This document shows, piece after piece, positions 9,786-11,288 of a stretch of 64,000 bases of DNA (positions are counted from its first letter, which is position 1; every line of letters starts with the position of its first letter). The translations under genes were made by a program, and so were the position numbers. The notes beneath the pieces are model-generated. The model was not told where the DNA came from. It saw only the letters and a program-made list of their open reading frames with translations, and made no database searches. Source of the stretch: Thermoplasmata archaeon (GTDB lineage: Archaea > Thermoplasmatota > UBA186 > UBA287); the NCBI GenBank assembly GCA_011620765.1, contig WOYO01000082.1:8259-72258 (forward strand). The letters are read 5' to 3'.

Positions 9786-10221
9786 GGATGATATCTCTTA
9801 TCCTGTATTCTATATCTCTTTTCCTGAGAACCAGGAGCATTATTGCTTCATCATAAAGGTGCTCATCATATCTATCCTCCAGCTCTCTGAAATCGACTGA
9901 AGCTTCATAAGGATCACTAACCAGAGAGAACATATCCAGAATAGCTCTGGAGCTATTGAGCACTTTCTCTATTGATTGGGGATTAAAATCTCTAATGCTG
10001 ACGCTTTTTGTATCTACGGTTATCCTTATCCTGTTCTCTATCTCCTCTATGAGCCCGTAAAGAAATGCAAGCTTCAAAAGATCCTCCGCTACCTTTGGCG
10101 GGACCCATCCCATATTTATAGATATGTAGTTCACAAAGCTCTTCTTATCAATCTCATCCGTGCTGTAACTTATAAATGGGCTGGCAACGGCAGCTTTTAC
10201 GATATCATCCTCCCGTGACAA
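9772..10221 (-). CDS. hypothetical protein (149 aa), apparently co-transcribed downstream of the SAMP-like gene
   Basis: ORF whose start overlaps the SAMP-like gene stop by 17 nt. No recognisable motif. Confidence 0.45.
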   Translation of the reverse strand: MSREDDIVKAAVASPFISYSTDEIDKKSFVNYISINMGWVPPKVAEDLLKLAFLYGLIEEIENRIRITVDTKSVSIRDFNPQSIEKVLNSSRAILDMFSLVSDPYEASVDFRELEDRYDEHLYDEAIMLLVLRKRDIEYRIRDIILKKD

Positions 10222-10405
10222 TCCGCACCACCTCTATAGTGTCCCTCTCAGTAAGATCTTCGTCAATTGGGGTAAGAGAGCCATTTTTCAAAACCAGGTT
10301 TTCGTTCTCCTCCAGTTCCAATGCATTCAACAAATCTCTAACCTTAGAATTGTTGTTGAGAGTGAGCATGGTTTCCTTGCCTTTGACAAAAACCTTTATT
10401 TGCAC
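10205..10405 (-). CDS. small archaeal modifier protein (SAMP) / MoaD-ThiS-like ubiquitin-like protein, C-terminal Gly-Gly
   Basis: GTG start: VQIKVFVKGKETMLTLNNNSKVRDLLNALELEENENLVLKNGSLTPIDEDLTERDTIEVVRIVTGG then stop. Beta-grasp pattern and terminal GG. The track ORF 10205..10504 carries a non-coding N-terminal extension that would read through the TATA box. Confidence 0.6.
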   Translation of the reverse strand: MQIKVFVKGKETMLTLNNNSKVRDLLNALELEENENLVLKNGSLTPIDEDLTERDTIEVVRIVTGG

Positions 10406-10426
10406 ATAATAAGATTGTATTGTGGG

Positions 10427-10436
10427 TATATAAAAG
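10427..10436 (-). promoter_or_regulatory. TATA box (minus-strand reading cttttatatacc) about 23-30 bp upstream of the SAMP GTG start
   Basis: Canonical archaeal TATA at the spacing expected for a leaderless transcript. Confidence 0.5.
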
Positions 10437-10617
10437 CTGGGGTAGCTTAGCGGACTAAAGCGCCGGCCTCGAGAGCCGGTGGGCGAAAGCCCTCGGGGGT
10501 TCAAAACAGCCCTTTCCCCACAAGTTGATTTCGCAAAGCGAAATCCAAGATTTGCCCTTTAGGGCAAATCAGCCTTTGGACGCTGTGCGGAAAGGAGTGA
10601 AAATCCCCCCCCCAGCG
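10436..10617 (+). tRNA. tRNA-Ser (anticodon CGA) interrupted in the T-loop by a ~98-nt insert (candidate intron at 59/60, about 10505-10602)
   Basis: Acceptor 5' GCTGGGG (10436-42), U8 A9, D-arm GCTT/AAGC with GG in loop, anticodon arm CCGGC-CUCGAGA-GCCGG (U33, CGA), long variable arm GGGC-GAAA-GCCC (class II), T-stem GGGGG + TTCAA (10495-10504). Then insert. Then AT + CCCCC (T-stem 3') + CCCCAGC (acceptor 3', perfect complement of GCTGGGG) + discriminator G at 10617. The contiguous sequence cannot form a T-arm without removing the insert. Confidence 0.6.
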
Positions 10618-10619
10618 CT

Positions 10620-11288
10620 TTATAGAGTGAAACCTGCGTATAAGAGGCTCATAGAAAAAAGCACCAGAGCCCTTCTCACAGGCAAAGAAAAAACAGCTCC
10701 CAGAGGCTCCTGGAAATCCACAAGAAAAACCAGAGCAAAAAATGATGCCGATATGATCAAGCTCTTTATCCTCTGCCTTTTGTCTTTTGTAACGATAGAG
10801 TAAGCGAGAACACACAATGGTGCTATCAGAGCCATAGCTATAGATACAAATACAGCTAGTGTCGCTCCTTCTCCTATCACCCATTCTCCAATGCCCATCT
10901 CACGAAAGGATGGCGGATAGATGATTATCAGAGCAGTGTCAAGAACTACCAGTGATATAGGTAATAGAGCAAGACTCTTCCAGCGCTTTGGAGCGAGCGT
11001 GAATATACCGAACATCGCGCCGAAAAATGGCCTTGAGCGGCCGATAATGAAGGACAGGATAGCAATAAATGGGTAGGAGAGCACTACGCTATTCGTCTCA
11101 TCCGGAAAACGGAGGAGGAAGGTCACAAAATAGTCTGCAGAAAAAAACAGAAAGTACAGCATCAGAAAAAATGCAGGAGGTGCTGGAGTCTGCATGTATC
11201 TCATGAGGAGCTTATAGAAAAGAAAAGCCGCCAGAGCTACTATCGCGAGAGTGAAACCCTGCACTGCAAAAAGCTCGGCGGGATTCAT
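10620..11288 (-). CDS. integral membrane protein (multi-TM, 222 aa), function unknown
   Basis: Hydrophobic segments throughout. Its stop codon abuts the 3' end of the tRNA gene on the other strand. Confidence 0.5.
   Translation of the reverse strand: MNPAELFAVQGFTLAIVALAAFLFYKLLMRYMQTPAPPAFFLMLYFLFFSADYFVTFLLRFPDETNSVVLSYPFIAILSFIIGRSRPFFGAMFGIFTLAPKRWKSLALLPISLVVLDTALIIIYPPSFREMGIGEWVIGEGATLAVFVSIAMALIAPLCVLAYSIVTKDKRQRIKSLIISASFFALVFLVDFQEPLGAVFSLPVRRALVLFSMSLLYAGFTL

What the first reader, a model, noticed from the sequence alone, without database searches (positions are those of the whole stretch)
10436..10617. tRNA-Ser(CGA) whose T-loop is split by a ~98-nt insert: candidate non-canonical intron at position 59/60
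The 5' part (10436-10504) is a textbook class-II tRNA-Ser: acceptor GCTGGGG, U8, D-arm with GG, anticodon loop CUCGAGA, long variable hairpin GGGC-GAAA-GCCC, T-stem GGGGG and loop start TTCAA. The contiguous downstream bases cannot close the T-arm. About 98 nt further, the sequence AT-CCCCC-CCCCAGC-G supplies exactly the missing T-loop end, T-stem 3' strand, acceptor 3' strand and discriminator: 16 of 16 required positions. Introns in archaeal tRNAs are normally at 37/38. T-loop 59/60 introns are known but rare and mostly crenarchaeal. The only tRNA in 64 kb is of this unusual kind.
Basis: seen in the sequence. Interest (0 to 1): 0.75.

Follow-up and report, generated by a model that had tools for sequence, protein, structure and literature searches.

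The report
tRNA-Ser gene with mobile T-loop intron
This is a real archaeal serine-tRNA gene interrupted in its T-loop by a 98-base intron; near-identical copies of that intron sit at the same spot in other tRNA genes of the same Thermoplasmatota lineage, so it appears to move between genes.

Summary
Window 10436-10505 plus 10604-10617 join to a perfect 84-nt class II tRNA-Ser(CGA). ARAGORN scores the joined form 126.7 and the uninterrupted.5, and 10604 is the best of 400 downstream joining points.

The junctions form an archaeal bulge-helix-bulge motif. UUCA (54-57) pairs with UGAA at the intron's 3' end, and the 3-nt bulge AA|U abuts the T stem. That puts the 98-nt intron (10506-10603) at 59/60, the T-loop counterpart of 37/38. 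The 5' bulge is relaxed in this copy.

The host is an uncultured Thermoplasmatota archaeon. In its relatives, Ser(CGA), Arg(CCU), Leu(CAA), Gly(GCC) and Asp(GUC) all carry introns at exactly this site, from two sequence families.

The window's intron is 95% identical to the one in tRNA-Gly of the sister MAG. That MAG's orthologous tRNA-Ser holds an unrelated 36-nt intron between near-identical exons. The long form contains a covarying two-hairpin core. The core is absent from 28- and 47-nt mini-introns and also occurs free-standing beside tRNA-Leu.

T-loop 59/60 introns and intron transposition are both known. This is a new variant: specific to the T-loop, in Thermoplasmatota, with a nested structured element. 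No RNA evidence exists, and the lineage's endonuclease type was not determined.

The parts
10404..10412 (+). Putative archaeal TATA box (CATAATAAG), centred about 28 nt upstream of tRNA position 1
   Evidence: Read from the sequence. The block is conserved in L002 and L006. Its promoter function is inferred, not tested.
10436..10505 (+). Exon 1 of tRNA-Ser(CGA): tRNA positions 1-59 (acceptor 5' strand, D arm, anticodon arm with CGA, long variable arm, T-stem 5' strand GGGGG, T loop UUCAAA)
   Evidence: It is identical to exon 1 in L002 and differs by one base from L006.
10500..10503 (+). BHB central helix H, 5' strand (UUCA, tRNA positions 54-57). It pairs with 10598-10601.
   Evidence: UUCA/UGAA is present in seven of the eight genes analysed there; L007 has UGGA, with one G.U pair.
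10504..10506 (+). 5' bulge A58-A59|A, with the predicted 5' cleavage between 10505 and 10506. In this copy the bulge is closed only by a possible lone C10507-G10597 pair, so the form is relaxed (hBH-like).
   Evidence: the constrained fold leaves a 7x2 internal loop here. The bulge is canonical in L006, L047 and L007 and in L020 (CA/UG closing pairs read from the sequence).
10506..10603 (+). 98-nt intron of family A
   Evidence: MFE -40.4 kcal/mol, z = -5.5 against shuffles. It is 93/98 identical to the intron of tRNA-Gly(GCC) in the MAG GCA_034190325.1. There is no Rfam match.
10506..10510 (+). Helix P1a, 5' strand (ACAGC). It pairs with 10582-10586 (GCUGU) and closes the two-hairpin core. 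It is an alternative to P0 plus CACA/UGUG.
   Evidence: Covariation across copies: CAGC/GCUG, GAGC/GCUC, UAGC/GCUA.
10511..10517 (+). Helix P0 (extended h'), 5' strand CCUUUCC. It pairs with 10589-10595 (GGAAAGG).
   Evidence: This stem, closed by an AGA loop, makes up the whole 28-nt mini-intron of L059 tRNA-Leu.
10527..10545 (+). Hairpin 1: GAUUUCGC-AAA-GCGAAAUC
   Evidence: Four distinct, perfectly complementary stem variants occur across copies.
10549..10570 (+). Hairpin 2: GAUUUGCCC-UUUA-GGGCAAAUC
   Evidence: Four distinct, perfectly complementary stem variants occur across copies.
10582..10595 (+). 3' strands of P1a (10582-10586) and P0 (10589-10595)
10598..10601 (+). BHB central helix H, 3' strand (UGAA)
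10602..10604 (+). 3' bulge A-A|U60, with the predicted 3' cleavage between 10603 and 10604. It is flanked by H and by the T stem.
   Evidence: AAU is invariant in all eight genes analysed there.
10604..10617 (+). Exon 2: U60, T-stem 3' strand CCCCC, acceptor 3' strand CCCCAGC, discriminator G73. No CCA is encoded. A T-rich tail CTTTAT follows.
   Evidence: The convergent membrane-protein ORF ends at 10620, so there is no overlap.

Best explanation
Window 10436-10617 is a working tRNA-Ser(CGA) gene of an uncultured Thermoplasmatota archaeon. A 98-nt protein-spliced (bulge-helix-bulge) intron interrupts it between T-loop positions 59 and 60.

Proposed mechanism:
1. The gene is transcribed as a precursor of about 182 nt.
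2. The tRNA body folds. T-loop residues U54-A57 pair with UGAA at the 3' end of the intron to form the 4-bp H helix.
3. This leaves A58-A59-A(i1) and A-A-U60 as the two 3-nt bulges. The T stem is the outer helix and the intron's CCUUUCC/GGAAAGG stem is the inner one.
4. This is the exact T-loop counterpart of the canonical 37/38 arrangement: a 7-nt loop on a 5-bp stem, with the intron after the sixth loop base.
5. The splicing endonuclease EndA cuts after the second base of each bulge. An RtcB-type ligase then joins the exons into the 84-nt tRNA and probably circularises the intron.

Shown here: the sequence anatomy, the motif, its conservation and the covariation. Inferred: cleavage, ligation and circularisation.

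The intron is one copy of a family (A) that sits at exactly 59/60 in at least five different tRNAs of this lineage. It is exchanged with a second family (B) on short evolutionary timescales. At least between tRNAs that share a T arm (Ser-CGA and Arg-CCU), the exchange is most simply explained by gene conversion. That step is inferred.
For: **The tRNA**
- The joined product is perfect: ARAGORN 126.7 against 102.5 unspliced, and the best of 400 offsets.

**The splicing motif**
- In the eight genes folded, the 3' bulge AAU next to the T stem is invariant and H is UUCA/UGAA in seven (UGGA in L007).
- BHB-constrained folds lie only 0.4-3.5 kcal/mol above the MFE.

**The host**
- Archaeal, Thermoplasmatota: DUF2240 and SAMP2 neighbours; a neighbouring protein is 94% identical to one in the MAG GCA_034190325.1, titled 'Thermoplasmatota archaeon'.

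**Orthologues**
- L002, L006 and L067 keep both exons and the intron site, but carry introns of 36, 35 and 47 nt.
- T-stem pair 50:64 is G-C, G.U or A-U.

**The same site in other tRNAs**
- Gly(GCC) in L045, Asp(GUC) in L047, Leu(CAA) in L059, L032 and L020, and Arg(CCU) in L062, L063 and L065.
- Each complete joined product scores 119-127 in ARAGORN. L020 is cut off at its 5' end by the contig and was not scored.
- tRNA-Asp(GUC) is normally the only Asp acceptor, so its intron must be removable (inference).

**Mobility**
- The window intron is 93/98 identical to the MAG's Gly intron. The MAG's orthologous Ser carries family B, and the flanks are near-identical.
- The MAG's Ser and Arg B introns differ by 1 nt.
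- The window's Ser has C64, as Arg does, where the other Ser genes have U64.

**Structure of the intron**
- z = -5.5 against shuffles.
- Each hairpin has four perfectly complementary stem variants, and P1a has three covarying variants.
Against: - There is no transcript evidence of any kind.
- In the window copy the 5' bulge is not closed by a proper helix: at best a lone C-G pair followed by a 3x1 internal loop. The motif is therefore the relaxed hBH type.
- The one Thermoplasmatales EndA studied, T. acidophilum alpha'2, is classed as narrow-specificity (PMC6379350). The lineage's own EndA was not identified here.
- The BHB pairing is 2.3 kcal/mol above the MFE for the window copy.
- Rfam's tRNA model scores the locus 28.6 bits, just under its gathering score of 29. 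It gets there by mis-aligning the variable arm as a T arm.
- I could not check whether a second, uninterrupted tRNA-Ser(CGA) exists elsewhere in the genome.
Confidence: 0.87

Rival explanations
1. The gene is a pseudogene: a tRNA-Ser(CGA) gene killed by insertion of a hairpin-rich, MITE-like mobile element into the T loop. The UCG codon would then be read by tRNA-Ser(UGA) through wobble.
For: - The core looks like a repeat element: two GATTT...AAATC hairpins, copies in several loci, one free-standing copy, and an unrelated intergenic hairpin cluster.
- A C34 isoacceptor could be dispensable (general knowledge).
- The 5' bulge is relaxed.
Against: - The exons are intact and conserved. Pair 50:64 covaries across orthologues that all carry an insert at the same phosphodiester bond.
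- Every insert, whatever its length (28-136 nt) or family, ends in UGAA-AA and so recreates the H helix and the 3' bulge.
- The same design occurs in tRNA-Asp(GUC) and tRNA-Gly(GCC), which are not expected to be dispensable.
Confidence: 0.06
2. The locus is a split or rearranged tRNA. The 5' and 3' pieces would be remnants brought together by recombination or by integration of a mobile element, and would be joined in trans or not at all.
For: - L007 joins Arg exon 1 to Ser exon 2 across an A-type intron.
- L032 has a duplicated Leu 3' exon 3.9 kb downstream of the gene.
- Many contigs end inside these T arms.
Against: - In the window both pieces lie on one strand, 98 nt apart, between the same neighbours as in L002 and L006. 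They match each other perfectly.
- Nothing needs to be supplied in trans.
- Repeated T-arm-plus-intron sequence, at least 53 nt shared by Ser and Arg in the MAG, explains the contig breaks.
Confidence: 0.02
3. The 3' match is a coincidence, and ARAGORN's uninterrupted call (10436-10519) is the real, if odd, tRNA.
For: ARAGORN reports 10436-10519. Rfam gives 28.6 bits over 10440-10519.
Against: - That call has four non-Watson-Crick positions in the acceptor stem and a broken T stem. It scores 24 points lower than the joined form.
- The 12 consecutive complementary bases are unique in the window.
- Eleven more complete genes in relatives show the same split, each with its own matching exon 2.
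Confidence: 0.01
4. The insert is a self-splicing (group I or II) intron, or it is kept in the mature tRNA as an expanded T loop.
For: None specific. Bacterial and organellar tRNA introns are self-splicing (PMC4033280).
Against: - 98 nt is far too short for a group I or II intron.
- No Rfam intron family matches, even at E up to 10.
- Relatives carry inserts as short as 28 nt.
- An insert kept in the T loop would abolish the T-loop/D-loop contacts (general knowledge).
Confidence: 0.01

Closest known systems
ARMAN-2 (Ca. Micrarchaeum acidiphilum) pre-tRNA-Cys(GCA) intron at 59/60, and tRNA-Pro(GGG) with introns at 53/54 and 59/60 (Fujishima et al. 2011, PMC3239211)
   Same: An archaeal tRNA intron at exactly 59/60 in the T loop. 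The motif is the relaxed hBH type, with the T stem as the outer helix. It is removed by EndA rather than by self-splicing, and the ARMAN-2 case was cleaved in vitro.
   Different: - The ARMAN-2 intron is 13 nt; this one is 98 nt with a structured, covarying core.
- ARMAN-2 introns sit at many positions. In this lineage every intron found sits at 59/60.
- The host there is DPANN with an epsilon2 EndA. Here it is Thermoplasmatota, EndA type unknown.
[quoted passage not shown] 2010, as summarised in PMC4090602 and PMC4033280)
   Same: Near-identical BHB introns occur in tRNA genes of different isoacceptors, which implies recent movement of introns between genes.
   Different: - There the host is crenarchaeal, the positions are many, and genes often carry several introns.
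- Here the site is a single one (59/60). Two families replace each other at orthologous loci between genomes whose neighbouring proteins are about 94% identical.
- Mini forms (28 and 47 nt), full forms (94-98 nt) and a free-standing copy coexist.
Euryarchaeal tRNA-Trp intron that carries a box C/D guide RNA (PMC4090602)
   Same: A long tRNA intron that nests a separately structured RNA. Related RNAs also exist as free-standing genes.
   Different: - That intron is at 37/38.
- The nested RNA there has C/D boxes and a known methylation-guide function.
- The core here has no C/D boxes, no Rfam match and no known function.
[quoted passage not shown] 2012, PMC3293823)
   Same: Closely related genomes differ in the intron content of one tRNA gene. 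tRNA fragments and inserted DNA lie next to the gene, as in L032 and L007.
   Different: In that case a 1.8-kb recombinase-bearing element was implicated. Here no recombinase was found next to the window gene or in the L032 insert.

Membership tests
Archaeal protein-spliced (BHB) tRNA intron | Removing the insert yields a canonical tRNA cloverleaf | tested here: met
   ARAGORN gives 126.7 spliced against 102.5 unspliced. Offset 10604 is the best of 400 tried.
Archaeal protein-spliced (BHB) tRNA intron | A 4-bp central helix with a 3-nt bulge carrying the 3' splice site, flanked by an outer helix | tested here: met
   UUCA(10500-03)/UGAA(10598-601), bulge A-A|U60, then the T stem. The 3' bulge is invariant in all eight genes folded; the helix is UUCA/UGAA in seven and UUCA/UGGA in L007.
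Archaeal protein-spliced (BHB) tRNA intron | A second 3-nt bulge carrying the 5' splice site, closed by an inner helix h' (strict hBHBh') | tested here: inconclusive
   In the window only a lone C10507-G10597 pair can close the A58-A59-A bulge before a 3x1 internal loop and a 7-bp stem. That is the relaxed hBH-like form. The bulge is strict in L006, L047 and L007 and in L020 (by inspection).
Archaeal protein-spliced (BHB) tRNA intron | An archaeal host encoding EndA and an RtcB-type ligase | not tested
   The host is archaeal.
Archaeal protein-spliced (BHB) tRNA intron | A spliced mature tRNA and an excised intron observed as RNA | not testable with these tools
   No transcript data are available.
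Transposed (mobile) archaeal tRNA introns, Thermoproteales type | Highly similar intron sequences in tRNA genes of different isoacceptors | tested here: met
   - Family A occurs in Ser (window), Gly, Asp, Leu and with Arg exon 1, at 64-95% identity.
- Family B occurs in Ser, Arg and Leu.
Transposed (mobile) archaeal tRNA introns, Thermoproteales type | Related introns at several different positions within tRNAs | tested here: not met
   All 12 complete genes examined, plus the partial L020, carry the intron at 59/60 only. The sample is biased, however, because the search pattern was the intron core.
Split (trans-spliced) tRNA | The 5' and 3' parts are encoded at separate loci or in separate transcription units | tested here: not met
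   Both parts are on one strand, 98 nt apart, in conserved synteny.
Group I / group II self-splicing tRNA intron | A match to the ribozyme core, and a size of hundreds of nucleotides | tested here: not met
   The insert is 98 nt, and no Rfam intron family matches at E up to 10.
Intron-encoded box C/D sRNA (tRNA-Trp type) | C (RUGAUGA) and D (CUGA) boxes flanking guide segments | tested here: not met
   The window intron contains neither UGAUGA nor CUGA (sequence). No Rfam sRNA family matches.

The most novel reading that the evidence does not exclude
The 70-nt two-hairpin core is an autonomous structured element: an RNA, or DNA that forms hairpins. On this reading it has colonised a simple T-loop mini-intron, spreads specifically to the universally conserved GGUUCAAAU-CC T loop of many tRNAs, and drives recombination between tRNA genes. 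The Arg/Ser hybrid in L007 and the Ser allele replacement in the window would be products of that recombination. The core would be released by EndA as a stable, probably circular, RNA with a function of its own, which would explain the conserved free-standing copy beside tRNA-Leu. That would make it a T-loop-targeted mobile intron system in an archaeal phylum thought to have only canonical introns.
Probability: 0.25. Interest if true: 0.8.

Novelty: new variant of a known kind. Interest (0 to 1): 0.58.

Why it matters
Textbook accounts say Euryarchaeota in the broad sense have few tRNA introns, all at 37/38, cut by narrow-specificity endonucleases (PMC4090602, PMC6379350). Here a Thermoplasmatota lineage carries T-loop introns in at least five tRNAs.

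The mechanism by which archaeal tRNA introns are gained and moved is still unknown, and reviews ask for "snapshots" of the process (PMC4033280). These loci supply several:
- Orthologous genes in near-identical genomes hold different introns.
- Mini and full forms of one intron coexist.
- Two tRNAs that share a T arm appear to evolve in concert.
- One contig may record a crossover between them.

There is also a practical point. ARAGORN and Rfam miss or mis-call these genes. MAGs of this group would therefore appear to lack essential tRNAs.

Tried and rejected
- **Rfam.** I searched at gathering threshold and at E up to 10, on the window and on eight related loci. Only marginal tRNA hits came back. 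Nothing matched the intron, its core or the free-standing copy.
- **ARAGORN.** It found no tRNA at all in the first ten relatives' loci. The same run with -i was tried only on L020 and L032.
- **Other copies in the window.** blastn, a covariance model (R1) and a hairpin scan found none.
- **Viral contigs.** No match to the core pattern.
- **Chance hits.** Most hits of the core pattern in metagenome and genome collections were long single hairpins or coincidences, and I discarded them.
- **C/D-box or K-turn reading of the core.** Rejected by inspection.
- **Integrase in the L032 insert.** Not found.
- **Which family is ancestral in Ser.** I first thought family B was, because L002 and L006 carry it. 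L067 carries an A-like mini-intron, so the direction of replacement is undecided.
- **L007.** I could not settle whether it is a true recombinant or a misassembly. Only one assembly spans the junction.
- **MAFFT alignment A1.** It mis-registers the hairpin tips, so I counted covariation from explicitly located stems instead.
- **EndA type.** Not determined.

Full report
**1. The observation**

- From 10436: GCTGGGG-TA-GCTT...AAGC, the anticodon arm CCGGC-CTCGAGA-GCCGG, a long variable hairpin, then GGGGG-TTCAAA.
- After 98 more bases: T-CCCCC-CCCCAGC-G, ending at 10617.

ARAGORN on the raw window calls an uninterrupted tRNA-Ser at 10436-10519. Its drawing shows a broken T stem and four non-Watson-Crick positions in the acceptor stem. 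Rfam's tRNA model reaches 28.6 bits against a gathering score of 29, and only by treating the variable arm as a T arm.

Joining 10436-10505 to 10604-10617 gives a flawless 84-nt class II cloverleaf. It scores 126.7 in ARAGORN against 102.5 for the uninterrupted call. I tried each of the 400 downstream offsets as exon 2, and 10604 scored best.

The 14-mer of exon 2 is unique in the window. A generic search of both strands for a T arm split by 30-330 nt, with a matching acceptor stem, returns this locus and two A/T- and G.U-rich chance hits. The convergent ORF downstream ends at 10620, so exon 2 is not part of another gene.

**2. The splicing motif and the exact site**

The run of A's leaves the junction ambiguous by sequence alone. 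T-loop residues UUCA (10500-10503, positions 54-57) are complementary to UGAA (10598-10601). Directly after UGAA come A-A-U60 and then the T-stem 3' strand. This is a 4-bp helix H with a 3-nt bulge against an outer helix.

From the established geometry of the motif, cleavage falls after the second bulge base. I derived this rule from the canonical 37/38 case and it is not a tool result. It puts the cuts at 10505|10506 and 10603|10604, which is position 59/60.

This is the exact analogue of 37/38 in the anticodon loop: a 7-nt loop on a 5-bp stem, the first four loop bases forming H, and the intron after the sixth.

With H, the T stem and the bulges enforced, the window precursor folds 2.3 kcal/mol above its MFE. 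The eight genes tested range from 0.4 to 3.5 kcal/mol above.

The 5' bulge (A58-A59-A) is properly closed in L006, L047, L007 and L020. In the window copy only a lone C10507-G10597 pair can close it before a small internal loop and the 7-bp stem CCUUUCC/GGAAAGG. The motif is therefore the relaxed hBH type.

**3. The host and the orthologues**

The neighbouring genes are archaeal: DUF2240, SAMP2, ornithine carbamoyltransferase and FeoB. The membrane protein next to the tRNA is 94% identical to one in GCA_034190325.1, a MAG titled 'Thermoplasmatota archaeon isolate MAG05_tar_biofilm'.

Four syntenic loci show the following.
- **L002 (that MAG).** Its tRNA-Ser(CGA) has the same exon 1. Exon 2 differs only at position 64 (U for C).
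- **Same site, different intron.** At the same phosphodiester bond L002 carries a completely different 36-nt intron.
- **L006.** A 35-nt relative of that intron, with A50-U64 in the T stem.
- **L067.** A 47-nt intron, also with A50-U64.

Pair 50:64 is therefore G-C, G.U or A-U across the orthologues. The pairing across the insert is under selection.

**4. The same site in other tRNAs, and two intron families**

I scanned public collections for the core of the window's intron. The true copies found were as follows.

| Locus | tRNA | Intron at 59/60 |
|---|---|---|
| L045 (same MAG) | Gly(GCC) | 98 nt, family A |
| L047 (same MAG) | Asp(GUC) | 94 nt, family A |
| L020 | Leu(CAA) | full-length family A |

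The MAG's own tRNA-Leu(CAA) (L059) has only a 28-nt mini-intron, ACAGCCCUUUC-AGA-GAAAGGCGUGAAAA. This is the outer stem of the long form without the core.

tRNA-Arg(CCU) lies next to dCTP deaminase in L062, L063 and L065. Its 59/60 intron belongs to the second family (B, AUGAAGG...CCUGCAUGAAAA). tRNA-Leu in L032 also carries family B.

All eleven complete relatives' genes give ARAGORN scores of 119-127 once spliced, and each exon 2 matches its own exon 1. L020 is cut off at its 5' end by the contig and was not scored. A normal, uninterrupted tRNA-Thr(GGU) lies in L020 and L059, so not every tRNA is affected.

Standard tools mostly miss the interrupted genes. ARAGORN found none in the first ten loci. 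Rfam gave only marginal hits to Ser and nothing for Gly, Asp, Leu or the Arg-type gene in L007.

**5. Evidence for movement**

- The window's Ser intron is 93/98 identical to the MAG's Gly intron, 88% to its Asp intron and 85% to L020's Leu intron.
- The MAG's orthologous Ser gene, with near-identical exons and flanks, holds family B. An intron has therefore been replaced at this locus since the two genomes diverged.
- The direction is open, because L067 has an A-like mini-intron and L006 has family B. A third strain (L073) starts its Ser intron with ACA, as family A does.
- In the MAG, Ser and Arg share the whole T arm, and their B introns differ by one base. That is a repeat of at least 53 nt.
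- The window's Ser has C64, as Arg has, where the other Ser genes have U64. Gene conversion between the Arg and Ser T arms explains both facts (inference).
- For tRNAs with different T stems (Gly, Asp, Leu) only GGUUCAAA and UCC are shared, so another route is needed. It is unknown.

**6. The structured core**

The intron folds to -40.4 kcal/mol, z = -5.5 against shuffles.

Two hairpins with the conserved foot GAUUU/AAAUC (10527-10545 and 10549-10570) each have four different, perfectly complementary stems across the copies. The closing helix has three covarying versions: CAGC/GCUG, GAGC/GCUC and UAGC/GCUA. P1a (ACAGC/GCUGU) and P0 plus CACA/UGUG compete for the same 3' bases and are probably alternative folds.

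A free-standing copy lies 15 nt downstream of tRNA-Leu(CAA) in two genomes, 92% identical to each other.

The core has no C/D boxes and no Rfam match. Its function is unknown. The options I can see are a selfish passenger, a stabiliser of the excised (circular) intron, or an RNA that acts in trans.

**7. Loose ends**

- **L007.** It joins Arg exon 1 (88% identical to L062) to Ser exon 2 (91% identical to L006) exactly across a 136-nt A-type intron. This could be a real crossover or a misjoin over the repeat.
- **Contig ends.** L001, L003, L005, L008, L009, L064, L066 and L068-L073 all end inside the tRNA gene, most of them in the T arm or intron. That fits repeat-induced breaks in assembly.
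- **L032.** It has a 3.9-kb insert bounded by a second copy of the Leu 3' exon. I found no integrase in it.

**8. Comparison with what is known**

- A 59/60 hBH intron of 13 nt in ARMAN-2 pre-tRNA-Cys was cleaved in vitro by its epsilon2 EndA (PMC3239211).
- Similar introns spread among different tRNAs in Thermoproteales (Fujishima 2010, cited in PMC4090602 and PMC4033280).
- Population-level heterogeneity at a tRNA locus is known from Caldiarchaeum (PMC3293823).
- Reviews state that Euryarchaeota carry only canonical introns, and that T. acidophilum EndA is a narrow alpha'2 enzyme (PMC4090602, PMC6379350).
- I found no paper on T-loop introns in Thermoplasmatota.

**9. Verdict**

Taken alone, the gene is a new member of a known kind. 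In context it is a new variant:
- the introns sit only in the T loop;
- the host is Thermoplasmatota;
- two families turn over between close relatives;
- the long form carries a nested, covarying element.

Splicing, the enzyme involved and the mobility mechanism remain inferred.

Noticed in passing
L007 4668-4878 (minus strand); JGI Ga0082037_1000214: A hybrid gene. tRNA-Arg(CCU) exon 1 and a 136-nt A-type intron with an extra hairpin are joined to tRNA-Ser(CGA) exon 2, and the acceptor strands do not match. The left flank is 88% identical to L062 and the right flank 91% identical to L006, with the breakpoints exactly at the intron ends. This is either a real crossover between two intron-bearing tRNA genes or a misassembly over the repeat.
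   Followed up: partly
L059 6848-6947 (minus strand); L032 4224-4323 (plus strand): A free-standing copy of the two-hairpin core, closed by its own long stem. It lies 15 nt downstream of tRNA-Leu(CAA) and is not inside any tRNA. The two genomes' copies are 92% identical. No Rfam family matches it.
   Followed up: partly
L032 169-4240: An intact tRNA-Leu(CAA) with a B-type intron (169-295) is followed about 3.9 kb later by a second copy of its 3' exon plus trailer (AAAATCCGGyCCCTyGCACTATTTTA). The arrangement resembles an attL/attR pair. The insert encodes a PIG-L-type deacetylase and, by eye, IS5-like transposase fragments. I found no integrase.
   Followed up: partly
L065 428-510 and L066 303-385: An intergenic cluster of three perfect hairpins with the same GATT(T) foot, one of them identical in stem to a hairpin in L007's intron. 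It lies between a methyltransferase gene and eIF-6, not in a tRNA. The hairpin style may therefore belong to a wider repeat family.
   Followed up: no
Contig ends of L001, L003, L005, L008, L009, L064, L066, L068-L073: Independent short-read assemblies repeatedly break inside these tRNA genes, mostly in the T arm or intron. This fits the T-arm-plus-intron sequence being repeated within a genome; Ser and Arg share at least 53 nt in the MAG. MAGs of this clade will tend to lose or truncate these tRNAs.
   Followed up: partly
L045 3920-4090; L047 4152-4318; L059 6963-7075; L063 2978-3088: ARAGORN (L002-L010, L032) and Rfam (L045, L047, L059, L032) fail to detect, or only marginally detect, T-loop-interrupted tRNAs, including the MAG's tRNA-Asp(GUC) and tRNA-Gly(GCC). 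L063 was identified only by manual splicing and was not scanned unspliced. This is an annotation blind spot.
   Followed up: yes
L065 2970-3093: This tRNA-Arg(CCU) has the T loop UCCAAAU (C at position 55 instead of the universal U) and a 49-nt B-like intron. UCCA can pair with UGGA at the start of the intron. It may be a sequence error, a decaying gene or a variant motif.
   Followed up: no
window 10205-10504 (minus strand) and 10549-10570: The mechanical ORF for the SAMP2-like protein runs into the tRNA gene; the real start is probably the ATG at 10372. On the minus strand, hairpin 2 of the intron is flagged as terminator-like. It lies just downstream of the convergent membrane-protein gene.
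   Followed up: no
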